From positions 512,001 through 576,000 of the forward strand of contig CAWDOD010000002.1 in assembly GCA_963803805.1 (NCBI GenBank): a stretch of DNA of 64,000 nucleotides. The letters run 5' to 3'. Within the stretch, counting starts at the first letter, position 1. Each line of letters begins with the position of its first letter. Below the pieces are notes generated by a model, which was not told the origin of the DNA, did no database searches, and saw nothing but the letters and a program-made list of their open reading frames with translations. Positions 22,548 to 53,777 of the stretch are shown here, one piece after another. Position numbers and translations under genes: made by a program. This DNA is from an uncultured cyanobacterium. GTDB lineage: Bacteria; Cyanobacteriota; Cyanobacteriia; Cyanobacteriales; CAWCAG01.

Positions 22548-22550
22548 TAC

Positions 22551-24046: not shown

Positions 24047-24155
24047 TGGATAATGATATAGTTTCATCCCCTTACCTTTGAATCCTCTACCCCTAAATAC
24101 CCAAATGTTCGCGGAATTAGGAGTTTTTTACCTACTCTGGGAGGCGGATTTGGTT

Positions 24156-24909: not shown

Positions 24910-24924
24910 ATTTTTGTGTTTAAT

Positions 24925-24946
24925 TTATCTATTAGGTTAATACTTT
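24925..24946 (+). repeat. 22-bp direct repeat, copy 2
   Basis: Identical to 22876-22897. Confidence 0.85.
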
Positions 24947-24964
24947 CTGGTGGAGATTAAGGAA

Positions 24965-25256
24965 GTGAGCGCTACAAAAGAGAAAATCATTGAAAAAAAT
25001 TGATATTCTACCAGAATCATTACTCCAAGAAATTCTCATCTTTGTAGAGTTTCTCTGTTGGCAAACTAATCATCCTCAACTAAAAAGTTTGCTCCTGGAA
25101 CACCTACTTAACCCTAAAGCTCACGGTGACGAACTCAAAACTTCAGAAAATAGTCAATCTCCCCAAGAAGAAGTAGTAGATCCTATTTCTCCTTTGCTAG
25201 GCACTTTAAAATCAGAATTTACTGATATTGGCGAAAATCATGACCAATATTGTTGA
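24965..25256 (+). pseudogene. DUF2281-like antitoxin, frameshifted in A7 run and 3'-truncated
   Basis: GTG-SATKEKIIEK joins IDILPESLLQEILIFVEFL after removing one A at 24993-24999; ends DIGENHDQY. Confidence 0.6.
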
Positions 25257-25393
25257 AAACCAGAACAGATAAAAGTTGGTCTTTGGTTGATGCGACTTCT
25301 TTTGTTATTATGGAGCAATTAAACTTACAACAAGCTCTAACTAGTGATCGACATTTTGAACAAGCAGGTTTTGTTCGTCTACTCAGAAATTGA
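25250..25393 (+). pseudogene. C-terminal fragment of a PIN toxin
   Basis: RTDKSWSLVDATSFVIMEQLNLQQALTSDRHFEQAGFVRLL*; N-terminal two-thirds missing. Confidence 0.8.
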
Positions 25394-25419
25394 ATAATCA
25401 CTCCCTAATTTACCTTCTT

Positions 25420-26301: not shown

Positions 26302-26344
26302 TTTGATAATATCAGGTAATTTAGCTTAATTTATTATTCACTTA

Positions 26345-38436: not shown

Positions 38437-39006
38437 TTACATCTGTTCAATTAACAAAGTGAATTCAGGTAAAACATCTTCTCCTGATAAAGATGTTGGT
38501 AAAGTTAAAGTTTCTACATCTTGTTGGGAGCGATAAATTTCTACCGTATTGTTTTGGGGATCAGTTAACCAACCTAACCTTAAGCCACAATCCAAATACT
38601 CCCCCATCTTTTCTTGTAAAGGTTTTAATCTATCACTAGGAGAGCGCAACTCAATAACAAAATCTGGGCAAATAGGAGGGAATTTTCTTCTTTGTTCTGG
38701 AGTTAGGGCAAGCCATCTTTCTTTTACTATCCAGGCAACATCAGGGGAGCGACTACCGCCACCAGGTAAGTTAAATATAGTTGATGAGCTAAAGACAAAT
38801 CCTAAGTTACTCTGACGATTCCAGAGGCTAACTTGAAAGATTAAATCTGCTTCTTTGTTACCACTTTCTCCTCCCACTGGGGACATAATAATTAATTCTC
38901 CATCACGACTAAGTTCTAATGGTACATCTGGATTAGCACTACAGAGTTGATAAAAGTTTTCTGTTGTTAATCTAATTAATGGTTTTAAATCTAATACAGT
39001 TCTCAT
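38437..39006 (-). CDS. Uma2 family endonuclease-fold protein
   Basis: RSPDVAW, CPDFVIELRSPSD, LGWL.DP. Confidence 0.93.
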   Translation of the reverse strand: MRTVLDLKPLIRLTTENFYQLCSANPDVPLELSRDGELIIMSPVGGESGNKEADLIFQVSLWNRQSNLGFVFSSSTIFNLPGGGSRSPDVAWIVKERWLALTPEQRRKFPPICPDFVIELRSPSDRLKPLQEKMGEYLDCGLRLGWLTDPQNNTVEIYRSQQDVETLTLPTSLSGEDVLPEFTLLIEQM

Positions 39007-39272
39007 CTTATTTCTCTTGAATGTTTACAATACTTTTTTCATAAATTAATGATGTTTATTATTCATGATTTCATTGCTATAAGATCACAAAACTATCTGG
39101 TAGAGTTTTTTAGCTAAAAAAACATGGTCTATTGATAGGATAAATAATATTTGTTAGCCTTAACAAAAACATCATCGTTGTATGAGTACACTGCTGGCAG
39201 AAGTTTACTGACAACTAAAGGTTCGCTCTCTTGGTGGAAACTAAATTGTGTTGAATTATCAGAGTATATTTT

Positions 39273-39902
39273 ATGGTACAAACAGTAAAAGCGACAGATT
39301 TGACTCGTTATGATGTCGAGAGAAAATTTGGTTTGCAATTAGTACAAGATGAAAGCTTTTTCTGTGAATGGTTAGATAACTTACCAGAATTAACGAATGC
39401 CGAAAAGCAAGCATTAGACTTGCTGAAAGCTCGTTATCTACACTTGTCGGCACGACCAATGCTGGAATCCATTGTCAAAATGGTTGTGCTATCTCCCTTG
39501 CTAGCTTTGGCTGGTTTCTATGATCCTCCTTTCTACATAACAGCAGAAGAAGAAATTCTTGTTAAGGAAGAAGTTGATGGAGAAATAATTCGAGGCAAAA
39601 TTGATATTCTGGTCGTACAGGGTAGTTTTTGGATTGGTGTAGTGCAGGCTAAACGGGAACAGGCAGATGTGATGACATCTTTACCTCAAACTTTATCTTA
39701 TATGATGGCCAATCCTAAGCCATCCCAACCTGCTTTCGGATTACTAATCAATGGTAGAGAAGTTGTTTTTGTGAAGTTAACTCAACAGAATACACCAAAA
39801 TATGCCCTTTCCAATACTTTTTCTCTGTTTAATCGTGGCAATGATTTTTATCAAGTTTTGCAGATTTTAAAAAAATATGTACAAACGCTATTTTCCGTAT
39901 GA
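39273..39902 (+). CDS. HsdR_N-like PD-(D/E)XK fold protein
   Basis: VKMVVLSPLL.LAGFY, GKIDILV...VVQAK, QTLSYM. Confidence 0.75.
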   Translation: MVQTVKATDLTRYDVERKFGLQLVQDESFFCEWLDNLPELTNAEKQALDLLKARYLHLSARPMLESIVKMVVLSPLLALAGFYDPPFYITAEEEILVKEEVDGEIIRGKIDILVVQGSFWIGVVQAKREQADVMTSLPQTLSYMMANPKPSQPAFGLLINGREVVFVKLTQQNTPKYALSNTFSLFNRGNDFYQVLQILKKYVQTLFSV

Positions 39903-40051
39903 AACTGTAGATGATATTGAAAACCTTTTAAGACAAAGCTATGAAAGTATTAAAGAATTTAATGAAGATATCAAAGCTCGTATTTTGACATTATTTTAAA
40001 GTTTTTGGCAAAGTGAAATTACGATTGAAAGGAAAAAGAATCTTATACAAA

Positions 40052-41539
40052 TCAGTCATTAATAGGGCAAGCTATCAGTAGTGAAAATAGCTTAAGAACT
40101 TTCAGCTCTTCTAATCTTTGTCCTTTCCACCACGCTTCATCTTGGCGGAGTTCGTAGTCCATGTTTCTTCTAAACTCTTCCTTATCTAGCTTATCACCCA
40201 TCAAAGAGCTACCAAAAGCCATGAAATCAGCAAGAAGCTGCTTTTGCCAATCCTGCTTTATTACTGCTTTACTGACAGTTCGTAAACCGCTAACATAAGC
40301 ATCTAAAGCTGCATTATCTGCTGTGACAACCTGCATAACCCCCCAAGGAAGATGACCCTCTAGTGTATTGGTGGAAGTATAAGAAACTTGATTGGAGGAG
40401 ATCCAAGAATTTTGGCAGCGCCAGCCTACGCGATCGCCAAATGCTTGTGGGTCTTTTTGGCATTCATTAAAGATTCGCTTCTGTACACTGAAGCCAAAAC
40501 GTCCATCGCTAGATTTTAACCATAAGTGGTCAATAACTTGCAGAACTTGACAAGGAAAATTTTGAATTTGTTTATCGGTAAGGTAGCCTTCTTCTTCTTG
40601 CTTAGCTACTTTTAAAATAATAGTTCTAGTTGCTTCATTTGCTTCTCGCCATCTTCCTGATGCTAGTAAATTCTCCAAATGTGTATATTCTTCACTTCTA
40701 GTTATAGAGAAGGTGAGAAACTTTTGAATAATTGGGCGAAAATTTTTCCAAACAATTTCTCCTTTAAAGTTATCAGAAACATTGGCTACTTTTTCATAAA
40801 AATGTAGTTTCTGTTTATTTAACTCACACACTATTGGTATTTCGTACCAGAGCAAATTGACTCTGTGGTTAATAGGATTCGTGGTTCGTATGGCAGTAGC
40901 TGTATTTTCATCTAAATTGTCAACAATTGCTACAGCGAAACAAGCATGAGTCGGAACCCGAAAATTATATATAGCTTCGCCAACTGCTGATGAATTAACT
41001 GTACCTTTAGCTATTCGTAAACATTGGGCTGAATATTGCTGTAAAATCTTAATTTGCATTGAGGAAAACTCAGAGAACATAAACAAAGCTTCACCTCGCA
41101 TTCCCTGCTGTAGTTCAAAGTCTGATATGGTAGCAATATAGTTAAATAGCCTTCCGTTCTTGAAAACATTTTGACGAATTTCTAAGGAACCTTGTTGTCG
41201 TAACTTTGGTAAAACATCTTCAAAGTATTGCTCTAAAGATAAACTTTTTTCACAAGCTTCAATTGTTCTAAAGTAGTCGGTATTAAAATCGTTTTCTTGG
41301 TTGGTACGAAGAGCTTTAATCAAAGCTTGAATAGCTTCATCATCCCAAGTATAGTAGTTGCGATCGCCAATATGAATATCTTCACCGTGACTTATGTTGA
41401 CATTATATTTACCTAGCTGCTTAATACTTTGACTATCATTACTTTCAAGTAGTTGTTTAAGAGTTTGAATATCAGCTTCCGTTTGTTGGTTTTCAGCAAT
41501 ACGCTTGAAAATAGCATTTATTTGATTGGCAGTATTCAT
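40052..41539 (-). CDS. GUN4-domain protein with N-terminal EAD10-like segment
   Basis: LENLLASGRWREAN.AT, FPC..L..IDHLW...SDGRFGFSVQKRI; N-terminal QLGKYNVNISHGEDIHIGD. Confidence 0.85.
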   Translation of the reverse strand: MNTANQINAIFKRIAENQQTEADIQTLKQLLESNDSQSIKQLGKYNVNISHGEDIHIGDRNYYTWDDEAIQALIKALRTNQENDFNTDYFRTIEACEKSLSLEQYFEDVLPKLRQQGSLEIRQNVFKNGRLFNYIATISDFELQQGMRGEALFMFSEFSSMQIKILQQYSAQCLRIAKGTVNSSAVGEAIYNFRVPTHACFAVAIVDNLDENTATAIRTTNPINHRVNLLWYEIPIVCELNKQKLHFYEKVANVSDNFKGEIVWKNFRPIIQKFLTFSITRSEEYTHLENLLASGRWREANEATRTIILKVAKQEEEGYLTDKQIQNFPCQVLQVIDHLWLKSSDGRFGFSVQKRIFNECQKDPQAFGDRVGWRCQNSWISSNQVSYTSTNTLEGHLPWGVMQVVTADNAALDAYVSGLRTVSKAVIKQDWQKQLLADFMAFGSSLMGDKLDKEEFRRNMDYELRQDEAWWKGQRLEELKVLKLFSLLIACPIND

Positions 41540-43951
41540 TTAATTTTCGCTTTCGCTTTCAAAGAAAATATCAACCAAATGCTCTTGTAGGAGCCTATGA
41601 ACAAATTCGTAGGAACCACCTATTCTTCGGAGCAAAGTTTGTTCAGTAGCATAATTAAGAAATTTATTATAGTTACAGGGAGTATAACCTTCATAGCGAA
41701 GAACTATACGTAGGGCAAGATGTTGAACACAAGCAATTCCCCCACTAAGCAACCAAAAAATTAAGCCTAGACTTGCACTTTGAGAAAATCCTTTCGTTAA
41801 CCCAACTACTAAACTAGTGATTACTGCAATTATGCTAGCATTTATCAAAGATTTTCTAATTGCTTGATTTGAGTGATTTCCTTTCTGTACGCTTAGAATT
41901 GCAGAACCTTCATAAACTCTTCTTGTTAAAACAGTTTGTACGATTTGACCACAAGTTAGTCCACTAATTATGCCGACATACCAACTTTGCTCTGTACTTC
42001 CAAAAAGATAATTAATTAGCAAAAAATATAATAGTGAAGCTATTGACAATAATGAAGGCAGTATTGAACTCCAAAACCAACTCCACTGAAACCTACCTAA
42101 AAAAGCTACGATAAATAGAATGAAGACTATAAAAGCTGCTAATAAAGAGATATTAACTAGAGAAACACCTAAAGTATAATAGAAATATAAAATTAGTTTT
42201 AAAATAATTAAGCTAAAAATTAAAAGTATCAAAAAAATTAGAATCGAATTTTTGATGCTTGATTTGTTGTTATTAAATTGAAATGAACGGAAATCACTTA
42301 GTTTATCTATTGCTAACTCAGGAAAAGCAATTACCCGTAAAGAAAAGAGGAGAATAAAAGCGAAGAATATAACACAAAAAGCTACTTGTATTGTTATAGA
42401 AGCTATTACAAAATACTCAGCAGAAAACTTTAAATCATAACATAATCCTGAGATTAGTCCAGTGATTAGTGTGCTAGCAGTTGACCATCTTGTTATTCGA
42501 GATGAACTAAAAAATCTGTCTATAGGTTGAATAATATCAGCAAACCTTACCACTAATAATATTAACGTAGTTAAAGTGATTGTCTGTGAAAATATATTAT
42601 AAAATTGTTCTCCACCTAAATTAGTTTTTAAATATATAGCTAATTCAACTATTGAGACAATAAATAGGTATAATATTAGAATATATATTTTAGTCTGATT
42701 TGTATTTAAGGTTCTAAAAGGTTGAAGATGTGATACTACAAAACCAACTCTCTGAGATCCTTGCTCCTGTGATATTTGTGTTAGCTGGTGAGCTATCCAA
42801 GTAAGCCATACTAATTTTTGCTTATCTCTATCGTTACTTTTCAATTGTAGAGAAATATAGCTACTCCAAAAATATTTGAGTCGCTCCTGTGATAAGTTGC
42901 TTTTTTGCCATTGTTCAGGAGATTTTTCTTGACAAGCTACTATAGCAAGATTTAAAAATAGTGGTACACGAGCTAGTTTCAAGAAAATCTTATCTTGAGC
43001 AAGAGTTTGCCAAGAGGGTGAGTTTTCAATCTGTTTTAAATAAGCTTTAATTTGTTTATCATTAAGTGGAAGAAGACAAACTGATCCATTAAGATTGAGG
43101 CGAGTTTCACAGTTAATGTATTCTTTTCTACGACCACAAACTACTAGAGAAATAGGACGATTTTCTCCACTCAAAAAAATATTGATTTCTCTAATACATA
43201 ATTCCTGAAGAGATAGTTCTAGTTCATCTAAACCATCCAACATTGGTAGTAGCTTTTGCTCATTCAACCATTTTCTAATAGTGGTAACTGGCTGTCCATA
43301 TTTAGTACTTACTGCTTTGGCTATCCATTCGTACATGGATTGTTTTTCTTGCCAAGATGCTAAGTTTATAACCACAGGAATCGGCTCAAGATTATCATTC
43401 TCTGCTATAAGAATGAGGTTTTTAGCCAACTCTAATAATGTTGTTGTCTTACCTGCTCCAGGTTGACCAGTAATCAAAAGTTTGCCAACAATTTCATCAT
43501 GTTGAAATATTTCCAGTACAGTAGATTCTTCAGAATTTATTCCTTTAAAGTTTGGATTACTTTTAATGTCTCTAGTCCAGGGGCAATTAACTAAATCTTG
43601 CTGTAGAGCTTTCCTTAAATTAATAGATTTTGCATCTTGTGCAAGCAGAGATATGCTTAAAGTCCCTTTAACACTCTTTCGTACATCATCGAGAAATAAG
43701 TTTTCTTTGCGAGAACGCTGACCTACCTCAGTTTGATATGTATGATAAGTTTTATCACCAAAATCATTACTTTTTCCTTCTCCAATATTATAGATTTGTT
43801 TAGCAACTTGAATGGTTGTTTGTTTTTCACTTTCATCTAGTTTATGTAAAGCTTCGTCATCTACTTGACGCAAAATTTCAAAATCTTTATTTGTTGCAGT
43901 CCCTTCTGAAACTTTTCTCAAAATTGCTTTTATTTCATCTAAGGTAGCCAC
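41540..43951 (-). CDS. NACHT (NLR-like) NTPase with C-terminal multi-TM region
   Basis: Walker A GQPGAGKTT, Walker B LDGLDE, PLFL; many TM helices; YEFVHRLLQEH. Confidence 0.9.
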   Translation of the reverse strand: MATLDEIKAILRKVSEGTATNKDFEILRQVDDEALHKLDESEKQTTIQVAKQIYNIGEGKSNDFGDKTYHTYQTEVGQRSRKENLFLDDVRKSVKGTLSISLLAQDAKSINLRKALQQDLVNCPWTRDIKSNPNFKGINSEESTVLEIFQHDEIVGKLLITGQPGAGKTTTLLELAKNLILIAENDNLEPIPVVINLASWQEKQSMYEWIAKAVSTKYGQPVTTIRKWLNEQKLLPMLDGLDELELSLQELCIREINIFLSGENRPISLVVCGRRKEYINCETRLNLNGSVCLLPLNDKQIKAYLKQIENSPSWQTLAQDKIFLKLARVPLFLNLAIVACQEKSPEQWQKSNLSQERLKYFWSSYISLQLKSNDRDKQKLVWLTWIAHQLTQISQEQGSQRVGFVVSHLQPFRTLNTNQTKIYILILYLFIVSIVELAIYLKTNLGGEQFYNIFSQTITLTTLILLVVRFADIIQPIDRFFSSSRITRWSTASTLITGLISGLCYDLKFSAEYFVIASITIQVAFCVIFFAFILLFSLRVIAFPELAIDKLSDFRSFQFNNNKSSIKNSILIFLILLIFSLIILKLILYFYYTLGVSLVNISLLAAFIVFILFIVAFLGRFQWSWFWSSILPSLLSIASLLYFLLINYLFGSTEQSWYVGIISGLTCGQIVQTVLTRRVYEGSAILSVQKGNHSNQAIRKSLINASIIAVITSLVVGLTKGFSQSASLGLIFWLLSGGIACVQHLALRIVLRYEGYTPCNYNKFLNYATEQTLLRRIGGSYEFVHRLLQEHLVDIFFESESEN

Positions 43952-44946
43952 AATTCATCATTTCCCTCAGAACTACTCTTATGGATAACATCACCGAAGT
44001 GACTACCGCTAACTTTGTTAATATTATAAATATATTTCCCATATTGATTAATAACTTGGGCAATTTGATTAATTTTCTCAGTTGCCTGGGGCTTAGCCTC
44101 TTCCCAACCTTTTGCTGGTAAACCCTTGCCCCCTTGTAAAAGTGCCACTGCAAAATCGCTCGTATCAAAATCAAAATGAGGCGTTTGTGAGACATTATAT
44201 AGATCCTGGGCTGTTTTAGGTACAGTTTCTCCTAAATAATTCATCAAGTTAGAAACCTTTACTTGTGTCTCTCCTAGTTGATTACCTGCCCCTTGTAAAG
44301 CTTCTAGAAAATGAAAAGTATAAACACTAATTGAATCATCTTTAATCCACGACTTTTGTTCCCCCTGACAGGAAGTAAATACCACCCTGCCTTTTCCTTC
44401 TGCAAGAGATTTAATTAAACCTTTGGACTCTGAAGGTGATATTTCTGCAAACCCTTTCGGTAGTTTGAGAGGAATAGCCGCTTCTTCTTTTGAAGTTGCC
44501 ATTCCTGCTGCATGACAACAATCTAAAACAACCAACAAGCGTTGAGATTTTATTTGCCGCAAAGCGTTAGTAAATTGTTCCGATGATAAAGCAGAATCAG
44601 CTATATCTAACGGATCAATATCATGCTGCAACAAGTAATAGTGATTATCAGCCTCCTCTACCGAACCATGACCGGAATAGTAAACTAAAATAGTTGCTTC
44701 TGGATCTGTTTCGGCTTTTTCCTTAAGCCACTGTAAACCAGCTAAAATAGCTTCACGGCTTGCCTGATCATCATTAAGTATGCGGATATGTTCTTGATCA
44801 TCAGGATAGGCACATAAATCAGGATCAATCAACGCTGCATAAATAGCTTGAGTATCTTTAACCGTTACAGGTAAAGACCATCGCTCATAGGCAGATTCTC
44901 CCACACCAATTAGTAAAGCATAGCCTTGGTTAAATTTTTCAGTCAT
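43939..44946 (-). CDS. caspase-family (peptidase C14) protease
   Basis: ALLIGV, YYSGHG (catalytic His), LDCCHA (catalytic Cys), QTP. Confidence 0.92.
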   Translation of the reverse strand: MTEKFNQGYALLIGVGESAYERWSLPVTVKDTQAIYAALIDPDLCAYPDDQEHIRILNDDQASREAILAGLQWLKEKAETDPEATILVYYSGHGSVEEADNHYYLLQHDIDPLDIADSALSSEQFTNALRQIKSQRLLVVLDCCHAAGMATSKEEAAIPLKLPKGFAEISPSESKGLIKSLAEGKGRVVFTSCQGEQKSWIKDDSISVYTFHFLEALQGAGNQLGETQVKVSNLMNYLGETVPKTAQDLYNVSQTPHFDFDTSDFAVALLQGGKGLPAKGWEEAKPQATEKINQIAQVINQYGKYIYNINKVSGSHFGDVIHKSSSEGNDELWLP

Positions 44947-44985
44947 GATCTTAAGGGTTTAGAGATTATTATTCATTTTAATCAA

Positions 44986-46797
44986 ATGAGCGACTTAACC
45001 CCGATTGTCATTTCCTTAAAAACTGCAACCCTAGCTACAATCATTACCTTTTTCCTTGGCATCATTGCTGCCCGTAGTTTGTTAACTACTCGCGGCATCA
45101 TAAAAGGTTTACTGGATGGTTTGTTGACTTCTCCTTTAGTCCTTCCTCCCACGGTAGTTGGCTTTCTGTTACTCTTGCTTTTAGGCAGAAATGGCCCTGT
45201 GGGACAGTTGTTGCAACTTTTGGAAATTAGAGTGATTTTTACTTGGGCGGCAACGGTAATTGCTGCAACGGTTGTGGCTTTTCCTTTGATGTACAAAACC
45301 GCCTTGGGAGCTTTTAAACAAATTGACAGCAATCTCCTCGCCGCAGGGAGGACACTGGGGGCTTCTGAAGGGAAAATCTTCTGGTGGGTGATGCTTCCTT
45401 TAGCTAAGCCGGGACTCATTGCCGGAACTTTACTTACCTTTGCCCGCGCTTTAGGGGAGTTTGGGGCTACTTTGATGGTGGCGGGTAGTATTCCTGGGCA
45501 AACGCAAACTATTCCTGTGGCTATCTTTTTCGCTGCCGAAAGTGGGGCAATGGATCAAGCTTTGGTTTGGACGGTGGTTACTGTAGCTATTTCTTTGGGG
45601 GTGACAGTGGCGGTTAATTTTTGGTCTGATGCAGCTATGTATAAAGGTAAGGGACAGAAAAGTCAAGTCGAGTTAGCAATACAAACTCCCCTTCCTTCTT
45701 CTCAACAAGCAAAGCCTTACCCGGTGGAGTTAATTGTAGAAATAAAGAAACAACTTCCTGGTTTTGAGTTGGATGTCTCTTTTGATGCTTATCAACAACC
45801 TCTCGGTTTGCTGGGGGCTTCTGGGGCAGGGAAAAGTTTGATTTTACGTTGCATTGCTGGTTTGGAAACTCCTGATCAGGGACGCATTGTTTTAAATGGG
45901 AAAGTACTGTTTGATTCTCAAGGAGGCATCAATTTACCTAGTCGCGATCGCCAGGTTGGTTTTTTGTTTCAAAATTATGCTCTTTTCCCCCATCTCACTG
46001 TTGCCCAAAATATTGCTTTTGGTATGCCTAGAGAGCTATCCAAGTTGGCTATTAAGCAGCAAGTAGCAGCCCAGTTAGCTGCTGTACAACTAGCGGGGTT
46101 AGGAAATCGCTATCCTCACCAACTTTCTGGAGGGCAACAACAACGAGTTGCCTTAGCTAGGGCGTTAGCTAGTCAACCGGAGGTATTGTTATTGGATGAG
46201 CCTTTTTCTGCTTCTGATACTTACCTGCGCCACCAACTTGAAAAGTTTTTGTTAGCAAACCTAACTACATACCAAGGTGCAACTTTGTTTGTTACCCACA
46301 ACCTGGAAGAAGCTTATCGCATCTGTAGCAATTTGTTAGTTGTTGAAGAAGGGAAGATCGCTGCAAGGGGTAGTAAACATGAAATTTTTGAACATCCTCC
46401 CAGCAAAAATGTGGCTACGGTGACGGGATGTAAAAATTTTTCTGCGGCTGTAGCTGTTGCACCTCAAGAAGTGTTTGCAACAGATTGGCAATGTTTCCTG
46501 AAAGTAGTTGAACCTATCTCCCCTAATTTAAGTTACATAGGCATTCGCGCCCATCAACTGATTTTTACCCAAGATGCCAATTTAGAAAATACTTTCCCTT
46601 GTTGGTTAACTGCCACCAGCGAAACCCAACATCGCATGACTTTATACCTCAAACTAAATCAGCCTCCCCAAAATCTCCAAGATTATCACCTGCAAGCAGA
46701 AATTTTTAAGGAAAAATGGGCAACGCTGAAAGATTTACCTTTCCCTTGGTACATTCAATTACACCCCCTTCGGGTTATTCTTTTGCCAGGAGATTAA
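44986..46797 (+). CDS. modB: fused molybdate ABC transporter permease/ATPase (ModB-ModC)
   Basis: PLVLPPTVVG, ARALGEFGAT; GASGAGKS, LSGGQQQR, LLLDEP. Confidence 0.92.
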   Translation: MSDLTPIVISLKTATLATIITFFLGIIAARSLLTTRGIIKGLLDGLLTSPLVLPPTVVGFLLLLLLGRNGPVGQLLQLLEIRVIFTWAATVIAATVVAFPLMYKTALGAFKQIDSNLLAAGRTLGASEGKIFWWVMLPLAKPGLIAGTLLTFARALGEFGATLMVAGSIPGQTQTIPVAIFFAAESGAMDQALVWTVVTVAISLGVTVAVNFWSDAAMYKGKGQKSQVELAIQTPLPSSQQAKPYPVELIVEIKKQLPGFELDVSFDAYQQPLGLLGASGAGKSLILRCIAGLETPDQGRIVLNGKVLFDSQGGINLPSRDRQVGFLFQNYALFPHLTVAQNIAFGMPRELSKLAIKQQVAAQLAAVQLAGLGNRYPHQLSGGQQQRVALARALASQPEVLLLDEPFSASDTYLRHQLEKFLLANLTTYQGATLFVTHNLEEAYRICSNLLVVEEGKIAARGSKHEIFEHPPSKNVATVTGCKNFSAAVAVAPQEVFATDWQCFLKVVEPISPNLSYIGIRAHQLIFTQDANLENTFPCWLTATSETQHRMTLYLKLNQPPQNLQDYHLQAEIFKEKWATLKDLPFPWYIQLHPLRVILLPGD

Positions 46798-49732
46798 GTA
46801 ACCTATTACCTATTACTTAAAATCTACAAGGCTTTTCAATCTCCACCCTGGCCAAAATTTCCTCTTCTTCATCCGCAACAGCCTCCTCTTCTGCTAAACT
46901 AAGCCATTCCCAACTATCAGCATCTAAAGGTTCATCGGGATTAGCTAATGTTCCCCCCTTACCAATATCAAAAAAGGCGACAGTAGCATCTTTTTCTATA
47001 GCCTCACAACTATCATTAACCTCTGTATCCACCCTGTCATCCGGTAGGCTATTTAGCCCTTGAGTAACATCAAAATCTACATCAATGGCTACACTTCCTT
47101 CATTACCTACCACATCAGAAGAAGCGTTTAAATCAGAAAAGGGAGTCAAAAAGCGACTATCCCCGACAAAGCCATAAACACCAGTGGCGTTAATAATAAT
47201 TTGACCACCCTTGCCTTGGGAAGCACGGGCAACTACATCGCTGTTTTCATTGGGAATAGCAACGATGAAACCGACGTTAAGGGTAATATTACCTCCACTA
47301 CCAACACCCCCCGCAGCCGCACTAATGAGGCTGTTGTTGCGCATCAGGATGAGTCCGGGAACGTTGAGGTTAATGTTACCACCGCTAGTTTTTGCTGTGG
47401 CAGCAGTGATTGTTCCTCGGTTAGCAAGGTTGATGTTACCTGCGGAGATATTAACGTTGCCCCCGATGCCATCTCCTTGACTGTTAACAGCAATCTGTCC
47501 CCCATCCCTAATGTTTAGCTTTGGGGTGTTGATAAAAATACTACCGGAGTCTCCTGTTGTACCGGGACTAGTTTGAGCAAAGATACCGCTTGCTGCCCCG
47601 CCAGTGGTGATGCTGCTGCCTGTTACGTTGGGGGTTTCTAGCGAGATATTGAGGGTGTAGTTGCTTTGATTGGGAAGAGCGTTTGCAGACTTGGTGACTC
47701 TGAGGTAGAAAGTACCACTTTCAGTGAAAGTAACACTGAAATAGGGATCAGAAACTTGGTTACTTCCTCCTCCACCTTGGAATTGTATGCTACTAGAGTC
47801 TCCAACTAATAATTTCAATTGTCCATCTTGAATCTGCAAAATTTCTATACTTCCGACATTAGAACTGTCTGCTATGGGGTTTCCTTGGCTGTCTAAAACA
47901 TTATCAATATCAAAAATTCCCCTTGTTCCTGCTGTAACTTTAAAAGCGTAATAGTCTGGGGTATTGCTATTATCACCTTTGTCTTGAATGGAAACATAAG
48001 GAACTCTAGTAGAAATTTCTACATTAGGGTTAGAATTATTAACAGTGTCAATGGAAAAGAGATTGTCACTGAGAAACAAAGCTTCTGCTGGACTATTATT
48101 GGGTTCTGTTTCAGTAATCAGCTTAGATGGATTGAAAGGAGTAGCTTGTATCTTTTGTCTCAAAGGTGCAGAAGTTTGAGTGCGATTGGCAAAGTTAGGA
48201 TAATTGCCGTTGATGTTGAGACTTTCTCTGGCGTTAACAATAACTTCCCCTGCTTTACCTCCACTAAGGGTACTGGTTAAGATTTGTCCTCCACTTTGTA
48301 GGTTGAGTCGGTTGGCGTTGACTTTAATATCACCCCCAGAGGAATTGCTAAAAGTTTGTGCGCTTAAAACTCCTCCATCGCTTAGGGTGACAGTGCCGGA
48401 GTTGTTAACAGTAATATCTCCACCCTTGCCTGTATTGCTATTTTGTTCATCTCCAGAGGAGGTAAACAAACCACTAAGGAAACCTTCTGCACCAACACCA
48501 GAAATAGTCAATCTATCTCGAATATTCAGCAAAATATTGCCTGCATCCCCTTGACTTTTCGTTAAGGCTTGCAACTGGGAACCTCCCGTTAAAGAAAGTT
48601 GGGGAGAGTTGATGGTAATGTTGTTTCCTTGTCCTTGAGAGCCAAAGTTGGCAACGGTGGCAATGTTACTTTGGTTTGTTAATTGGACAGCTTGGTTAGC
48701 AGTGATATCTACTTTCCCTGCATTCCCTACCCCAGCAGTGAGACTTTGAATATTGCTGCGGTCTAAGAAGAGATTGTCTACCATAATCTCGACATCACCA
48801 GCATTGCCTTCATCAAAGGTTGTGGTTTCAATGAGGGAAAATTCGGTTAAGTTAACAGTTGGTGCAACTAAGCTTATCTTACCTACTTTACCTGTTGTAC
48901 CAGGTTCTAGGGTGGCGGTAAGACGACTTCTATTGAGAGTAATATTTTCTTGGGCATTGAGGGAAATGTTTCCTACCACTCCATTGGAAGTTTTCGAAAA
49001 TCCTCCCTTTGGGAAGAGACCAGTCTCAATATTAGAGTTATTGAGAGTTATGGCAGGAGCAGTAACAGAGATGCTTCCTGTCGATGCAATTCCTAAACTT
49101 AAGATGTAAAGATTATTCAACTCTAAATTAGTAGCTGAACTAGTGATACTGATATCCCCTGCATTTTGACCACCACTACTCACTTCACTTATCCCAGAAG
49201 AGGAGGTAATTTCTCCTCCACTATTGAGAGAAAGGTCTCCTCCATTTTGAGTATCTCCTCCTTCAAAGGATAAAGAAGAAGAAAAGATAGTTTTAGCAAT
49301 GATATTGCCCCCAGCATCAAGGGAAATATCTCCTCCATCTTGAGCATTTCCATCTTCATAAGAAAAAGATCCAGAAGTGATGCCATCAAGACTGGTAATG
49401 TCTCCACCCGCATCAAGGAAAATATGTCCTCCATCTTGAGTATTTCCACCTCTAAAGGAAAAAGAGGATGAATTGATACTACCACTAGCCAAGATATGAC
49501 CCCCAGCTTCAACGTTAATTGTTCCTCCATTTCCTGCGTCTCCATCTCCCAAGGAAAAAGAGGATGAACTGATAGTGGTAGTAGAGATATTACCGCCAGC
49601 TTCAACGTTAATTGCTCCTCCATTTCCCACATCTCCATCTCCATAAGCAAGAGAACGAGAATCTAACTCACCAGTAGAAATACTTCCTCCAGCTTTGAGG
49701 GAAATATAGTTATTTTAAATAACAATGAGACA

Positions 49733-50629
49733 TTAAGCTGCACAATAGTTACGAATAATTTCATCTACAGATGTTCCAGAATCTGCATACATTCTTCCTC
49801 TCTTTAAAGCACTAAAATCATGCTCAATATCATTGAAGTCAGGAGAATATTTCGGCAAGAATAATACTTCATGACCTGCTTCTTTCACTAACTCTCTAAT
49901 CATTCTTTTCCTATGAATTGGTGCATTATCCATAATTAGTACCGACGCTATGGTTAATGATGGTAATAAATACTTCCTTAACCATCCTTCAAATCCTTCT
50001 GCATTCAGACTTCCTCTAAACAACATTGGGGCTATTAAGTTTTTTGACTTTTTTCTTCTACCAGCTACTAGATTCTCTCTTTTACCTCGTTTACCTTGTT
50101 TTTCTCCATACAGTTTTTGCCTTTCTTGGTGTGCGTTCCCTTGCGTCTTACGCCGACGCGGGGTCACACCGCTTTTTGACCATCCATAATGCACCGACTG
50201 CATCTCCTCAAATCCTGACTCGTCAATAAACACTAGGCTTTCACTTCCGTAGATTTTTATTAATTCTCTTAATGCTCTTAAATACTTAATTCTTTCAAGT
50301 CTGTTTCTTTCTCGATAACGAAGTTCTTTTTTTTTCCTAGTTATCTTCATTTTTTTGAGAGCATAGAAGATCGCACTTGGATTTACCCCAAATTTCTTGG
50401 CTCTTTGCGATAGTTTAGCATCTGGATTTTCTTTGACATCTTGTTCTAATGCTTTCCAATCCAGTTTTCTTTGACGGCGTTCTACCTTCGTGGCTTCCAG
50501 ATTCTCACGCTCTAACCATCTGTATATTGTCGCTCTTCCAATGTTAAAGACTTTTGCTGCTTCCCTAATCTTTCCACCATCTTCTATATATTTTATGACC
50601 TTTTTTCTTAAATCTAGACTGTATGGCAT
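49733..50629 (-). CDS. IS630 transposase with 16-aa in-frame insertion
   Basis: YSLDLR, FIDESG, MDNAPIH, LPKYSPDFNDIE. Confidence 0.93.
   Translation of the reverse strand: MPYSLDLRKKVIKYIEDGGKIREAAKVFNIGRATIYRWLERENLEATKVERRQRKLDWKALEQDVKENPDAKLSQRAKKFGVNPSAIFYALKKMKITRKKKELRYRERNRLERIKYLRALRELIKIYGSESLVFIDESGFEEMQSVHYGWSKSGVTPRRRKTQGNAHQERQKLYGEKQGKRGKRENLVAGRRKKSKNLIAPMLFRGSLNAEGFEGWLRKYLLPSLTIASVLIMDNAPIHRKRMIRELVKEAGHEVLFLPKYSPDFNDIEHDFSALKRGRMYADSGTSVDEIIRNYCAA
50125..50172. repeat. 48-bp GC-rich palindromic insert
   Basis: GGTGTG...CACACC outer stem and GCGTC...GACGC inner stem inside an AT-rich transposase gene. Confidence 0.75.
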
Positions 50630-52937
50630 TATGTTGAGCTATTATAAATATACTCTTTTCATTTTACCTCCTTATTGTCTCAAACTTAATTAAAATAACT
50701 ATATCTCCACCATCTTGAGTATCTATATCTCTCAATGAAAATGAAGCAGAGATAGTGCCAATAGTGTCAGTAGAAATATTGCTGCCAGCCTCAAGGGTGA
50801 TATCTCCACCATTTCCCATATCTCCGCTTGCCGTTGCTTCAGAACGAGAATCGACTTGACTGGTAGAAATGTTGCCCCCAGCCTCAATGGTAATAGCACC
50901 TCCATCTTGAGTATCTCCAACTCCATAGGAACGAGAGATAGAATATACAGTGCCAGTGGCAACATTACCACCAGCTTCAATGTTAATAGCTCCTCCATTT
51001 CCCGCGTTTCCGAAACTAAACAAACCGGAAATAGAAGAAGAATTGAGATTGCCAGTGGAAATATCCCCTGTTGCTTGTAGGTTAATAGCTCCTGCATCAT
51101 CCGCATAGGATGATAATGAGAAGGGGGCAGAGGAGTCAGTATTAATTCCACCAGTAGTTATATTAACCCCAGAAATAGTTATATCCTTCCCCTCAGCAGT
51201 GATTCTATCTGCAATATCCTCCATCACAAAGTCACCCACCCCATCACCATCTGCATCGGCAGTAAAAACTACTGTTCCTGAACCCCCTGATAAATCTAGT
51301 TCGTTATCAAAGAGGTTGTTGACAGTAATGGTATTGTCGACCTGCACAACAACATTATTAATTTTCGCCTGTGCTTCTAATTCTCTTTCGGAGATGGTTT
51401 GAGGAGCGCCACTACCGTTGCCGTTTTCGATGGTAATATTCTCTGGATCTAAAAGCAAAGTCCCCATATTGCCAAAGTCAGAACTAGTATCTACACCTCC
51501 CTGAAACAACAGGGTTTCCTTCCCCGATATCTCTACAAAACCACCGTCACTAATGCCTGCACCACGGGCAGAGACATTACCATAAAAGTTTGTGGTGTCA
51601 TCAGCCCAAACAATTACTTTGCCACCTTCGCTATCTCCCTGCCCATCTGCTGTAATCACCGAATCCCGATTCACATAAGTCTGCAAAGCATTCGGCATAT
51701 CTCCTTTACCTTGATAATCTCCACCAACTAATACGCTGCCGCCACCATTCACCCCAGAAGCATCAATCTTTGCCCCAAGAAGTTCTACAACTTCCCCTAA
51801 AACTTGAACCTGACCCCCAACTCCTTGTTGATTAACAACATCCACACTACCAGAAACAACCGCAGTTCCTAACTCCACATCACCGGGAATACCTAAATCT
51901 CCCAAACCAGCCCCAGCCCCTAACTCTGCTACGGATAGACGGCTATTTCCTTGGTTAACAGTTAACTCCTGCCAACCTACAACCTGTCCTTGGTTGCCTA
52001 ACTCAACTAATCTCCCCTCCGGCATCGCTACCAAACTGACTTTTCCTCCCGGTGCTACCAAGTTCCCTTGGTTAACTACCGTTCCTCCTACTAAACTTAA
52101 ACCCTGCCCTGGCTCAACTGCTAAGTTACCTGCGTTAATAATTGCGCCCCCACTTCCTTCAAACTGCAAACCAACTGGAGCAATAGCACTCACAGTTAAT
52201 AATGGGGCTGCATTGGGATTGGTGGCACTGAAAACGTCCCCCCCAGGAAAGATGAAACCCTCAGCGGTGCTAGCGACAAATGCACCTTCTAAATCCAATT
52301 TGGCATTAGGGCCAAAGACTATGCCGTTAGGGTTGAGGAAGAATAAGTTGGCATCTCCTAATACTCCTAATGTGCCGAATAAATGGGAAGGATTGTTCCC
52401 TGTTACGCGACTAAAAATATTCTCTACTATCGCCAGGTTAGCAAAGTAAGCGCTGTGACCTTCTGAGATGTTAAATTCTAAGAAACTATGAAAGAGGTTA
52501 ATTCCCCGTAAAGCACCACCATCGAGGCGTTGAAGTTGAGGATTCACGGGGGTAACAACAGAACTTTCCCCGCCCAGGGTATTGTCAGGGGTTATTTGGG
52601 CGGGGGTAGGGAGAGCAAAAATAGTGCTGGTTAAGCCTAAAGCTAACCAGAATGGTTGAGATGCACGTTTCATTTGATAATTAAAAATTAATAATAATTT
52701 AGCTTGTTTTAATGCTAAAGCAATATATTGGATTAGCACTTAAACTCCTCGTTATTTTAATCTTTTGTAATTATTAAAAGTAGAGCCGCGATCGCATTTT
52801 CTTGTCGACTAGGCAAGATAAATAAGTGAAATGAGCCTCTTTTGCTAACCATAATTAACTAGAGAAACTCTAAGTAATTATGAGCAATTTTTCTGATAGG
52901 TTTGCTTGATAAGTAGAGTATTTTTTGCTCACCTTAG

Positions 52938-53777
52938 CTAAAGCAAATTTTGATTTTTTGTTCTTACTCGCTCATACAGTTCTTCCATGGTTTCAATAAA
53001 AGAATTGTCTTTATGCCAAAAAGGTGGATAGTCTCCTTGTTTTTTAATCAAAATGGCTGGAATTCCGCTTTGATTAGAAACTTCAATGGTTGATGGCAAC
53101 TGTTTTTTACCTAACCAAAATTCCTTGATATTTGGCTGGTGAGTAATTGCTTTTCTTTTCAAGTCAGGATAAAAAGATGTAGAGATTTCTAGGGGAATTT
53201 CTTGAATGTTTAGTTGAGAAGATAGGGCTTTTCCTAATGGTGACAAGGCTAATTTTTCCTGGAGTTCTGTTTGAGATAAACCTCGCAGTTCAAATAATAA
53301 AAAGGGATTTTGATCCAATTGTGAAGCAACTAGATAATATACTCCGGCGATATGCTTGCAGGGATTGGCATAATCAGGACAGGAACAACTGGTTTGGAAA
53401 TCTTCTCTACCATGGGGTAATAAGTTTAAGCCCAATTCAGAAAATGTCTCTTCAATATTTTCTGGTACTTCATTTAATAGCAACCTAGAAACAATACTCG
53501 CTTTCGCTGATAGTTTTTTAATCGCTTGTTTCCATTTAGTTTTGTTTATAGGTTTGATTTGGATGTCAATATTATAGGTTGGTTCTTTATAAACTCCAAA
53601 GTAAGGATTTACTGAACCTCTAACTTTAGCGGTAATATGATTTTCTTGAATCTCAAAACTCTTAACTTTACCCCCACGGGCATAGGAACGTCCCCTTTGT
53701 AATCTGTTATCCTCGCTAAATGCTTCTAAGGCTTTAATGAAGCGATCGCCCCACCAAGTGCGACTAAACTTGACCAC
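52938..53777 (-). CDS. SWIM zinc-finger protein
   Basis: RLQRGRSYA, CSCPD...CKH, PFLLFELRG. Confidence 0.9.
   Translation of the reverse strand: MVKFSRTWWGDRFIKALEAFSEDNRLQRGRSYARGGKVKSFEIQENHITAKVRGSVNPYFGVYKEPTYNIDIQIKPINKTKWKQAIKKLSAKASIVSRLLLNEVPENIEETFSELGLNLLPHGREDFQTSCSCPDYANPCKHIAGVYYLVASQLDQNPFLLFELRGLSQTELQEKLALSPLGKALSSQLNIQEIPLEISTSFYPDLKRKAITHQPNIKEFWLGKKQLPSTIEVSNQSGIPAILIKKQGDYPPFWHKDNSFIETMEELYERVRTKNQNLL

What the first reader, a model, noticed from the sequence alone, without database searches (positions are those of the whole stretch)
40052..44946. Caspase - membrane NACHT - GUN4 operon linked by a shared RHIM/amyloid-like motif (candidate inflammasome-like system)
Seen: three coupled genes (13-bp overlap at 43939-43951; stop and start abut at 41540/41539). 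A ~22-aa segment aligns without gaps in all three. Caspase C-terminus (43981-44046): QYGKYIYNINKVSGSHFGDVIH. NACHT N-terminus (43742-43810): QVAKQIYNIGEGKSNDFGDKTY. GUN4-protein N-terminus (41351-41419): QLGKYNVNISHGEDIHIGDRNY. Consensus Q-x-[GA]-K-x3-N-I-x6-[HD]-[FI]-G-D. The NACHT and GUN4 proteins also share the preceding helical hairpin (I.AI...V/I.E...T..D...L.Q). The caspase His/Cys dyad and both Walker motifs look intact. Known: effector-with-C-terminal-motif beside NLR-with-N-terminal-motif is the layout of fungal and bacterial amyloid-signalling (HET-s/RHIM/BASS) pairs, and the N-termini resemble effector-associated domain EAD10. Inference: a membrane NLR nucleates the motif to activate the caspase, and the GUN4-domain protein is a second sensor, substrate or regulator in a cell-death or defence pathway.
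Basis: partly seen in the sequence, partly recalled or inferred. Interest (0 to 1): 0.88.

Follow-up and report, generated by a model that had tools for sequence, protein, structure and literature searches.

The report
Caspase–membrane NACHT–GUN4 operon joined by EAD10
Three back-to-back cyanobacterial genes (a caspase-like protease, a membrane-embedded NLR-type ATPase and a GUN4-domain protein) share a short adaptor segment of the known but never tested EAD10 domain, which makes this an ordinary-looking member of a predicted bacterial cell-death or immunity system with one feature worth testing.

Summary
Three minus-strand genes are translationally coupled and share a roughly 22-residue segment. 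In the NACHT and GUN4 proteins that segment is the second half of Pfam domain EAD10 (PF19954). The caspase carries only that half at its C-terminus. Its whole-protein Pfam score is below threshold, but a profile-profile comparison gives E=3.8e-11.

The tail is conserved in orthologous caspases: 92 of 120 match a strict pattern. Among 79 related genomic loci, 69 hold a full EAD10 gene and 44 have one directly downstream. The tail matches its own neighbour better than other neighbours, even where both carry a different motif.

This is the "EAD coupling" principle of Kaur et al. 2020/2021, so I file it as a new member of a known, untested kind. The exact caspase / membrane NACHT / GUN4 triad was not found in those 79 loci.

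The RHIM/amyloid reading is not supported by database tests. It is not excluded either. The shared module occurs alone, in tandem arrays and as swapped pairs, and AlphaFold2 does not fold it confidently.

The parts
43939..44946 (-). Caspase-like protease gene (335 aa), Peptidase_C14 domain residues 8-258, catalytic His93 and Cys144
   Evidence: ORF. Pfam PF00656 E=1.5e-18. PADLOC caspase model E=4e-17; dyad present and invariant in 44 homologues.
43981..44073 (-). Caspase C-terminal tail (residues ~292-322): short helix plus the shared module, equal to EAD10 profile positions ~37-64 only. A 13-residue acidic extension follows.
   Evidence: local HMM E=1.4e-5. hhalign E=3.8e-11. Pfam EAD10 on the 40-aa tail alone: 15.2 bits, E=0.022 (below the 24.1-bit cut-off); conserved in 92/120 homologues.
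41540..43951 (-). EAD10-NACHT-multi-TM NTPase gene (803 aa, GTG start overlapping the caspase stop by 13 nt)
   Evidence: 202 homologues at E<=1e-3, most listed ones annotated PF05729 (NACHT).
43727..43951 (-). EAD10 domain of the NACHT protein (residues 1-75): helical hairpin, then shared module at residues 48-69
   Evidence: PF19954 E=2.1e-12, 47.4 bits (cut-off 24.1). alignment.
42722..43504 (-). NACHT NTPase core (about residues 150-410), Walker A GQPGAGKT 162-169 (Lys168), Walker B MLDGLDE 237-243
   Evidence: NACHT E=3e-5 (24.4 bits, just under the 26.7 cut-off). motifs. tblastn to NACHT genes in 8 loci over more than 400 residues.
41702..42694 (-). Block of about 8-10 predicted transmembrane helices (residues ~420-750), followed by a C-terminal helical piece (743-802) that is conserved in relatives
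   Evidence: hydropathy scan; residues 640-802 align separately in L005, L006, L011, L050, L055, L060. [quoted passage not shown]
40052..41539 (-). EAD10 - unnamed domain - GUN4 protein gene (495 aa); ATG abuts the NACHT stop
41312..41539 (-). EAD10 domain of the GUN4 protein (residues 1-76), shared module at residues 41-62
   Evidence: PF19954 E=1.2e-29, 102.6 bits.
40709..41257 (-). Conserved unnamed domain (residues ~95-277). In other proteins it sits behind other adaptors (TIR, PF19961, variant EAD10).
   Evidence: (31 invariant columns in 27 sequences; pLDDT 80-93); weak Foldseek resemblance to PD-(D/E)xK nucleases, best E=6.8e-3, none <=1e-3.
40331..40699 (-). GUN4 (tetrapyrrole-binding) domain, residues 281-403
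   Evidence: PF05419 E=1.7e-35; the same region matches the C-terminal part of the PADLOC PD-T4-6 model, E=2.1e-39.

Best explanation
This is an EAD10-coupled STAND-NTPase conflict (cell-death or immunity) module of a cyanobacterium.

Shown:
- A membrane-embedded NACHT NTPase carries an N-terminal EAD10 adaptor.
- The upstream caspase-like protease carries only the second, non-helical half of EAD10 at its C-terminus.
- The downstream protein carries a full EAD10 in front of an unnamed conserved domain and a GUN4 domain.
- The genes are translationally coupled.
- The pairing of caspase tail with a neighbouring EAD10 recurs and co-varies across cyanobacteria.

Inferred:
- A membrane or envelope cue, such as phage attack, switches the NACHT protein to its NTP-bound oligomer.
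- The clustered EAD10 modules then bind the matching module on the caspase tail and on the GUN4 protein.
- This raises their local concentration and activates the protease by induced proximity, as in apoptosomes and inflammasomes.
- The GUN4 domain gates the third protein by tetrapyrrole status.
- The outcome is probably growth arrest or death of the affected cell in a filament.
For: - Domain calls: (EAD10 E=2e-12 and 1e-29; Peptidase_C14 1.5e-18; GUN4 1.7e-35).
- Coupling and intact catalytic and Walker motifs.
- Tail is the EAD10 second half.
- Tail conserved: 92/120 by strict pattern. 7/120 homologues already carry a precomputed PF19954 label.
- Context: 69/79 loci hold at least one full EAD10 ORF. 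The density of EAD10 N-termini is 3.2 per 10 kb within 1 kb of the caspase, against 0.14-0.15 per 10 kb at 6-10 kb.
- 44/79 loci have a full EAD10 gene starting within -60 to +300 nt of the caspase stop.
- All 95 of the 101 EAD10 ORFs that I submitted were confirmed by Pfam. Their partner domains were NACHT (19), NB-ARC (8), FGE-sulfatase (20), VMAP (6), CHAT (3), GUN4 (2), TIR (2), PIN-TPR (2) and others. This is the repertoire Kaur et al. describe.
- Cognate specificity: mean score 42.1 against 33.8 for non-cognate pairs, permutation p=5e-5, 42 pairs. Matched replacement motifs give z=5.4-9.4.
- In other members of the membrane NACHT family the N-terminal slot holds CHAT, TIR or other domains instead of EAD10. 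This fits an adaptor standing in for a fused effector.
- The EAD principle and the proposed homotypic recruitment: PMC7159879, section 30 read in full; PMC8195603, passages.
Against: - No experiment exists. Only two papers in the searched library mention EAD10 in this sense.
- The window's caspase does not reach the Pfam EAD10 threshold: no hit at E<=0.1 on the whole protein, and 15.2 bits on the tail alone.
- The exact triad was not seen in the 79 loci.
- In about 18 loci the gene directly downstream of the caspase is a ~1120-aa helicase/PLD-like protein without EAD10, and the EAD10 gene lies beyond it on the other strand. Adjacency is therefore not obligatory.
- Some tails sit beside a non-matching EAD10 subtype, for example L028, L038 and L047 (ranks up to 39 of 42).
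- The pairs are not phylogenetically independent, so the permutation p overstates the support.
- PADLOC recognises no known defence system here.
- The sensed signal, the substrates and the phenotype are all inferred.
Confidence: 0.7

Rival explanations
1. Amyloid-like (prion-like) templating. The shared ~25-30-residue module is a beta-arch or beta-solenoid rung, not part of a globular domain. NACHT oligomerisation stacks several N-terminal modules into a nucleus. That nucleus templates the caspase tails (and the GUN4 protein) into a polymer, as in NWD2/HET-S, BASS Bell/NLR pairs or RHIM necrosomes, but with a protease as effector.
For: - Only the non-helical half is shared with the effector.
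- The layout of effector C-terminus with NLR N-terminus in collinear, overlapping genes equals that of BASS pairs (text).
- The module is exchanged as matched pairs for unrelated Gly/Asn/Val-rich strand-like motifs in both partners (L058/L072, L075-78, L010). Meanwhile the helical hairpin on the NLR side stays.
- The module occurs without the hairpin at the N-terminus of an NB-ARC fragment (P0254) and at the C-terminus of small non-caspase proteins (P0252, P0248). It also occurs as four tandem copies in P0245.
- AlphaFold2 with 90 sequences gives confident helices (pLDDT 74-85) but about 50 for the module. Its secondary structure differs between the two runs.
- The distribution in filamentous cyanobacteria matches that of BASS (passages).
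- The BASS screen looked only at Bell-domain effectors, so it would have missed caspase tails.
- From my own recall, not from a call: the I-[HQ]-[IV]-G-D core with an upstream N-I resembles the RHIM core of RIPK1/RIPK3.
Against: - In the NACHT and GUN4 proteins the module is flanked by helices on both sides inside a Pfam domain that its authors predict to be alpha+beta. It may simply be a hairpin of a small fold.
- There is no Pfam RHIM hit at E<=10. No RHIM, HET-s or RIPK chain appears in PDB profile searches at E<=10.
- The metagenomic examples (P0245, P0252, P0254) may be fragments and have no genomic context.
- I could not compare with the BASS1-10 logos or profiles: the figures are not held and the preprint supplements are closed.
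- There are no fibril data.
Confidence: 0.25
2. The shared segment is mainly a recognition or cleavage site. The caspase cuts EAD10 modules, its own tail included, at the conserved G-K or G-D positions, so the NACHT and GUN4 proteins are substrates released or activated by proteolysis rather than recruiters.
For: - The conserved Lys (GK) and Asp (GD) lie in all three copies (alignments).
- From my own knowledge, not a call: caspase-family enzymes cleave after basic or acidic residues.
- Kaur et al. invoke proteolytic cascades in related systems (passages).
Against: - The replacement motif classes keep the pairing but not the GK. This argues for mutual recognition of like with like rather than a fixed cleavage site.
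- EAD10 is also found beside non-protease effectors such as FGE-sulfatase, TIR and PIN-TPR.
- Nothing here tests cleavage.
Confidence: 0.05

Closest known systems
EAD-coupled NTPase conflict systems (Kaur, Burroughs, Iyer, Aravind, eLife 2020 PMC7159879 and 2021 PMC8195603); Pfam PF19954 EAD10
   Same: One EAD10 sits on a core STAND NTPase and further copies sit on effector or sensor proteins in adjacent genes. The neighbouring copies are more alike than distant ones. The setting is cyanobacterial. Caspase, GUN4, FGE-sulfatase, VMAP and PIN-TPR partners are all seen in the related loci.
   Different: The effector here carries only the second half of the domain. I did not see that stated in the passages and section I read; the source-data files were not read. 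The core is a NACHT with a multi-TM block rather than a VMAP, iSTAND or GAP1 component.
Bacterial NACHT (bNACHT) anti-phage proteins (Kibby et al., preprint 10.1101/2022.07.19.500537)
   Same: A NACHT module with an N-terminal adaptor (EADs are listed as one class) and a 'TM regions' sensor class. GUN4 is listed as a cyanobacterial sensor domain.
   Different: The proteins tested there are single-gene systems with fused effectors. No EAD10 member and no separate caspase effector is described as tested in the passages I read.
Amyloid signalling pairs: fungal NWD2/HET-S, bacterial BASS Bell/NLR pairs (Dyrka et al. preprint 10.1101/2020.01.06.895854), Bab/Agp (preprint 10.1101/2024.11.07.622273, abstract and outline only)
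   Same: A short motif is shared by the effector C-terminus and the NLR N-terminus. The genes are adjacent and collinear, often overlapping. Several interchangeable motif families exist. The hosts are multicellular bacteria.
   Different: The effector is a caspase, not a Bell/HeLo-type membrane-targeting domain. In this window the NLR-side motif follows a 40-residue helical hairpin instead of sitting at the extreme N-terminus. Amyloid formation is not shown.
Animal apoptosome and inflammasome (CARD/PYD-mediated caspase recruitment to an oligomerised STAND NTPase)
   Same: The logic is the same: a STAND NTPase with a homotypic adaptor and a caspase-family protease.
   Different: The adaptor is unrelated to the death fold. 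The NTPase is membrane-embedded. No homology is claimed beyond the NACHT and caspase folds.

Membership tests
EAD10 (Pfam PF19954) | Match to the Pfam model above the gathering score (24.1 bits) | tested here: met
   NACHT protein 47.4 bits and GUN4 protein 102.6 bits. This row covers those two proteins only.
EAD10 (Pfam PF19954) - caspase tail | Match to the Pfam model above the gathering score | tested here: not met
   No hit at E<=0.1 on the whole caspase. The 40-aa tail alone scores 15.2 bits, E=0.022, covering profile positions 37-64 of 77. Homology to that part of the domain is nevertheless supported by hhalign E=3.8e-11 and a local HMM E=1.4e-5. It is a partial domain, not a full member.
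EAD-coupled conflict system (Kaur et al. 2020) | One EAD copy on a core NTPase component and further copies on effector or signalling proteins encoded next to it | tested here: met
   in the window. 69/79 related loci.
EAD-coupled conflict system (Kaur et al. 2020) | Copies in adjacent genes are closer to each other than to other copies | tested here: met
   Cognate mean 42.1 against 33.8 for non-cognate pairs, permutation p=5e-5 on 42 pairs. Matched alternative motifs. Caveats: the lineages are not independent, and many single pairs rank poorly.
EAD10 fold | Small alpha+beta domain (predicted by its authors) | tested here: inconclusive
   AF2 gives helices 3-15 and 21-32 at pLDDT 74-85. The module region is near 50: three short strands in one run, helix and coil in the other.
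NACHT STAND NTPase | Walker A and Walker B (hhhhDGhDE-type) motifs and a match to PF05729 | tested here: met
   GQPGAGKT at 162 and MLDGLDE at 237. Pfam NACHT scores 24.4 bits, slightly under the 26.7 cut-off. Close homologues carry PF05729.
Caspase family (Peptidase_C14) | Pfam match and His/Cys catalytic dyad | tested here: met
   67.8 bits. H93 and C144 are invariant in 44 sequences. Activity and specificity were not tested.
GUN4 | Match to PF05419; tetrapyrrole binding | tested here: met
   122.7 bits. Binding is not testable here.
RHIM (RIP homotypic interaction motif) | Match to the Pfam RHIM model or to RHIM-bearing solved chains; core (I/V)-Q-(I/V)-G tetrad (the tetrad is recalled, not from a call) | tested here: not met
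   No RHIM family at E<=10 on the three motif segments or on two relatives with an I-Q-V-G tail. No RIPK or RHIM chain at E<=10 in PDB profile searches. The window copies read I-H-I-G, H-F-G-D and D-F-G-D.
Amyloid signalling pair (HET-s / BASS type) | Similar short motif at the effector C-terminus and the NLR N-terminus in adjacent genes | tested here: met
Amyloid signalling pair (HET-s / BASS type) | Effector is a Bell/HeLo-type cell-death domain; the NLR-side motif is at the extreme N-terminus | tested here: not met
   The effector is a caspase. The motif starts at residue 48 (NACHT) or 41 (GUN4 protein), after a helical hairpin.
Amyloid signalling pair (HET-s / BASS type) | The motif forms amyloid fibrils or a prion and matches a BASS profile | not testable with these tools
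   No fibril assay is available. The BASS profiles and logos are not held (figures absent, preprint supplements closed).
Known anti-phage defence system (PADLOC-DB v2) | Match of the gene set to a catalogued system | tested here: not met
   Only a generic caspase model (E=4e-17) and a partial match of the GUN4 region to PD-T4-6.

The most novel reading that the evidence does not exclude
The second half of EAD10 is an autonomous, amyloid-like (beta-arch or solenoid-rung) signalling motif. On this reading, a large class of cyanobacterial NLR-type NTPases activates caspase-like proteases by prion-like templating. That would join the 'EAD' and 'BASS' literatures. It would also give bacteria a protease-effector counterpart of the fungal NWD2/HET-S and animal RHIM/ASC-caspase polymers, with a readable code of interchangeable motif pairs that sets which effector answers to which receptor.
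Probability: 0.25. Interest if true: 0.85.

Novelty: new member of a known kind. Interest (0 to 1): 0.55.

Why it matters
EAD10-type coupling has been predicted from sequence only. In the searched library just two papers mention it, and both are computational.

This window offers a compact three-gene case with intact catalytic motifs. The comparative data add a concrete, testable point: the effector needs only about 30 residues of the adaptor, and those residues are exchanged as matched pairs between receptor and effector.

If the pairing is direct, it is a minimal recruitment tag for caspase activation by a bacterial NLR. If it is amyloid-like, it extends prion-like immune signalling to protease effectors in bacteria.

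The membrane-embedded NACHT and the GUN4 link also bear on how filamentous cyanobacteria tie envelope or photosynthetic status to cell-death decisions.

Tried and rejected
- Complex prediction of the NACHT EAD10 (residues 1-90, 34-row alignment) with the caspase tail (residues 270-335): no verdict, score 0.01, controls not run. This is neither for nor against binding.
- PDB sequence searches with the EAD10 profile and the tail profile. They returned only spurious helical-repeat or coiled-coil hits (designed armadillo proteins, a channel coiled coil) and nothing RHIM- or HET-s-like.
- Pfam at E<=10 on the motif segments: only EAD10.
- Foldseek of the EAD10-plus-unnamed-domain model against the PDB: no match at E<=1e-3. 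The best hits are PD-(D/E)xK nucleases at E=0.007-0.1. I treat the nuclease-like fold as a lead only, because I could not place a canonical D...(D/E)xK motif.
- ESM Atlas on the unnamed domain: best score 0.86 (DUF8052), below the level the tool calls meaningful.
- Promoter and terminator scan of 39800-45400: promoter-like sites not clearly above shuffles (26 found, shuffle mean 17.9, sd 4.6), terminator-like sites not above shuffles. No operon boundary could be drawn.
- The first literature search for 'EAD10' with match 'anywhere' returned unrelated papers.
- The first alignment of GUN4-protein homologues (A2) misaligned the ~305-aa EAD10-GUN4 proteins onto the unnamed domain. It was not used and was replaced by A3.
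- The whole-library profile search with the 39-position tail profile gave only 21 hits at E<=1e-3. Three of them (P0250, P0259, P0260) are unrelated repeat proteins.
- I considered that the caspase tail might be a chance match. I rejected this.
Full report
**1. Is it there?**

The three minus-strand ORFs are as described: caspase 43939-44946, NACHT 41540-43951 and GUN4 protein 40052-41539. The NACHT GTG start lies 13 nt inside the caspase ORF, and the NACHT TAA is followed at once by the GUN4-protein ATG. The N-terminus read from that GTG aligns from residue 1 with homologous N-termini of other genomes, so the start is right.

The 22-residue strings are at caspase 301-322, NACHT 48-69 and GUN4 protein 41-62. 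The caspase His93/Cys144 dyad and Walker A and B are intact.

**2. What is the shared segment?**

Pfam places EAD10 (PF19954) on residues 1-75 of the NACHT protein (E=2.1e-12) and 1-76 of the GUN4 protein (E=1.2e-29).

The whole caspase gets no EAD10 hit at E<=0.1. Its 40-residue tail alone scores 15.2 bits, under the 24.1-bit cut-off. Homology of the tail to that half of the domain is nevertheless solid:
- An HMM built from 38 EAD10 N-termini of other genomes finds caspase residues 296-324 at E=1.4e-5. In the whole window it finds only these three genes.
- A profile of 60 caspase tails aligns to a profile of 34 EAD10 N-termini with probability 97.2% and E=3.8e-11 over 30 columns. The aligned region is the non-helical half only.

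**3. Conservation and context**

The caspase belongs to a large cyanobacterial family: 1079 hits at E<=1e-3, with the top 120 at 61-76% identity and 315-370 aa. A strict tail pattern is present in 92 of those 120. Most of the others are variants with a longer loop or G-N instead of G-D, and a few carry a different tail. Seven of the 120 already have a precomputed PF19954 label.

A scan of one genome per species found 254 relatives. The 79 loci kept are all cyanobacterial except one Chloroflexota MAG.
- In 69 of 79 loci there is at least one full-length EAD10 ORF.
- EAD10 N-termini are about 20-fold denser within 1 kb of the caspase (3.2 per 10 kb) than 6-10 kb away (0.14-0.15 per 10 kb).
- In 44 of 79 loci a full EAD10 gene starts within -60 to +300 nt of the caspase stop on the same strand.

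I sent 95 of the 101 EAD10 ORFs to Pfam, leaving out two duplicates and four near-identical L076-L078 rows. All 95 were confirmed as EAD10. Their other domains were NACHT (19), FGE-sulfatase (20), NB-ARC (8), other P-loop NTPases, VMAP (6), CHAT (3), GUN4 (2), TIR (2), PIN-TPR (2), LRR, WD40, or none. This is the EAD10 network that Kaur et al. described.

**4. Does the triad recur?**

Not exactly.
- Homologues of the membrane NACHT lie directly downstream of the caspase in L005, L011, L050 and L060. They lie upstream on the other strand in L006/L007, L055 and L059.
- EAD10-GUN4 proteins follow the caspase in L025 and L048.
- In L059 the NACHT homologue (48% identity) is followed, after 21 nt, by a 277-aa protein that equals residues 1-276 of the window's GUN4 protein (59% identity) but has no GUN4 domain.
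- In L074 the same 277-aa gene follows the caspase, with only a 60-residue remnant of the NACHT C-terminus between them.
- The full EAD10 / unnamed domain / GUN4 architecture was found in one other protein only (P0121, 90% identity). All other hits are either EAD10 plus the unnamed domain (~277 aa) or EAD10 plus GUN4 (~305 aa). The window's third gene therefore looks like a recent fusion of two common EAD10 proteins.
- Several membrane-NACHT hits and 277-aa hits report the same longest-contig length (for example 30789, 29789, 28543, 16116, 3885). This hints that the pair is conserved. I could confirm that only for L059.

**5. Specificity of the pairing**

Across 42 non-identical caspase/downstream-gene pairs, the tail resembles its own neighbour's module more than other neighbours' modules: mean best 20-residue score 42.1 against 33.8, permutation p=5e-5. 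Ranks range from 1 to 39 of 42, and the lineages are not independent.

More telling, where the canonical module is replaced, it is replaced in both partners:
- A K-N-x-V-G...I-Q-x-G-D-R type in L058 and L072.
- A G-D-R-x-V-x-x-G-G...I-V-x-G-D type in L075-L078.
- An extra Y-Q-P-x-W-x-V-x-G pair in L010.

Each is significant against shuffles (z=5.4-9.4, at most 1 of 2000 shuffles reaching the observed score). In L075-L078 the receptor side keeps the EAD10 helical hairpin (Pfam still calls EAD10) while the second half differs. The second half is therefore the part that must match.

In the window, the caspase (S-H-F-G-D) is closer to the NACHT copy (N-D-F-G-D) than to the GUN4 copy (I-H-I-G-D) at the Phe position.

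**6. The three proteins**

*Caspase.* A Peptidase_C14 domain, a conserved G-G-K-G-L-P linker, a short helix, the module, and then a 13-residue acidic end.

*NACHT protein.* EAD10, an NTPase core, and about 8-10 hydrophobic helices between residues ~420 and 750. A C-terminal helical piece follows, and it aligns separately in relatives. [quoted passage not shown] In other members of this NACHT family the N-terminal slot holds CHAT, TIR, a signal-peptidase-like or a cyclase domain, or another EAD. This fits an adaptor replacing a fused effector.

*GUN4 protein.* Residues ~95-277 form a well-conserved domain with no Pfam name: 31 invariant columns in 27 sequences and pLDDT 80-93. Elsewhere it sits behind TIR, PF19961 or variant EAD10 modules. 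Foldseek gives only weak matches, mostly to PD-(D/E)xK nucleases. The GUN4 domain is canonical, and its region also matches the C-terminal part of the PADLOC PD-T4-6 model.

**7. Mechanism**

The best-supported reading is the EAD principle. The NTPase is the switch, EAD10 is the coupling element, and the caspase and the GUN4 protein are recruited effectors or sensors.
- Shown: the domains, the coupling, the intact motifs, and the conservation and co-variation of the pairing.
- Inferred: oligomerisation on a membrane cue, proximity activation of the protease, gating by tetrapyrroles, and cell death or arrest.

**8. Amyloid or RHIM?**

*Tests that could have supported it did not.* No Pfam RHIM hit at E<=10. 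No RHIM or HET-s chains in PDB profile searches.

*Features that fit.*
- Only a ~30-residue strand-prone piece is shared.
- It is swapped as matched pairs.
- It occurs without the hairpin at the start of an NB-ARC fragment (P0254) and at the end of small non-caspase proteins (P0252, P0248).
- It occurs four times in tandem in P0245.
- AlphaFold2 folds the flanking helices with confidence but not the module, even with 90 sequences.
- The BASS screen was limited to Bell-domain effectors and would not have seen caspases.

*Against.* In this window the module is embedded between helices in a domain its authors call alpha+beta. The metagenomic examples lack context and may be fragments. I could not compare with BASS profiles. 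The resemblance to the RHIM core is from my recall only. I rate this reading at about one in four.

**9. Known or new?**

The kind is known (Kaur et al. 2020, 2021; Pfam) but untested. Only those two papers in the searched library mention EAD10 in this sense. The window adds a member with a membrane NACHT and a rare GUN4 fusion.

I did not see two observations stated in the texts I read: that the effector holds only half the adaptor, and that this half is exchanged as matched pairs. For PMC7159879 I read section 30 and passages. For PMC8195603, 10.1101/2022.07.19.500537 and PMC8086366 I read passages. For 10.1101/2020.01.06.895854 I read sections 5 and 7 and passages. For 10.1101/2024.11.07.622273 I read the abstract and outline. 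Their figures and supplementary or source-data files were not seen and may cover these points.

**10. Left unchecked**

Metagenome and viral contig collections (closed), the contig of P0121, BASS profiles, transcription, and any binding or fibril data.

Noticed in passing
window 46817-52739 (minus strand): A TPS-secretion-domain ORF (50664-52739, PF05860) and a 937-aa Gly/Asn/Ser-rich repeat ORF with no Pfam hit (46817-49630) are separated by an IS630-family transposase gene (49733-50629). It looks like a two-partner-secretion exoprotein gene split by an insertion sequence.
   Followed up: no
window 22161-27577: A small cluster of conflict or mobile-type genes among housekeeping genes: a Trypco1-domain ORF (22161-22547), a PIN-domain ORF (23114-23515), a DUF3368 ORF (24156-24662), an unnamed 293-aa ORF and an ISAZ013-type DDE transposase (26375-27577).
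   Followed up: no
window 38437-39902: Just downstream of the operon lie a Uma2-family putative endonuclease (38437-39006, E=2e-46) and a 209-aa ORF (39273-39902) with only a weak HSDR_N hit (E=0.023).
   Followed up: no
window 42001-44000: G+C falls to 31% over the NACHT gene, against about 40% for the window. This may reflect the Ile/Leu/Phe-rich TM block or recent acquisition.
   Followed up: no
window 40709-41257 (GUN4 protein residues ~95-277): A conserved unnamed domain that travels behind different adaptors (EAD10, variant EAD10, TIR, PF19961). AF2 is confident on it. It shows only weak PD-(D/E)xK-like fold matches and an Atlas lead to DUF8052 at 0.86.
   Followed up: partly
L010:10001-14241: This caspase carries the EAD10 module and then a second tail motif. 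The second motif matches the first residues of the next gene, an nSTAND1-WD40 NTPase without EAD10. The locus also holds four further EAD10 ORFs, so one effector may carry two different tags.
   Followed up: partly
L074:9983-12076 (Aetokthonos hydrillicola contig): The caspase with the same long acidic tail as the window's is followed by a 60-residue remnant of the membrane-NACHT C-terminus (55% identity to residues 743-802) and then the 277-aa EAD10 protein. This looks like a deletion of the NACHT gene.
   Followed up: partly
P0245, P0243, P0254 (proteins from the representatives search): P0245 has four tandem copies of the module without hairpins. P0243 is a caspase whose tail runs on into a P-loop NTPase, a fused form. 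P0254 is an NB-ARC fragment with the module alone near its N-terminus.
   Followed up: partly
L012, L018-L021, L024, L027, L029, L030, L032-L036, L061, L067 (about +100 to +5700 from the caspase stop): In many Nostoc-type loci the caspase is followed by a ~1120-aa SF1-helicase/PLD-like protein (Pfam run on L012 only) and then a convergent EAD10-FGE-sulfatase gene. This is a different, recurrent neighbourhood for the same caspase.
   Followed up: partly
L065 (Chloroflexota MAG contig): The only non-cyanobacterial locus among the 79. It has a caspase with a canonical tail followed, 44 nt downstream, by a 1539-aa EAD10-NB-ARC protein. This is possible horizontal transfer or a binning error.
   Followed up: no
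window 63071-64000 and 53783-56980: A trypsin-like protease ORF runs off the window end. A SNF2/DUF3670 helicase (1065 aa) has a 279-aa unnamed ORF just downstream of it on the same (minus) strand, at 52938-53777.
   Followed up: no
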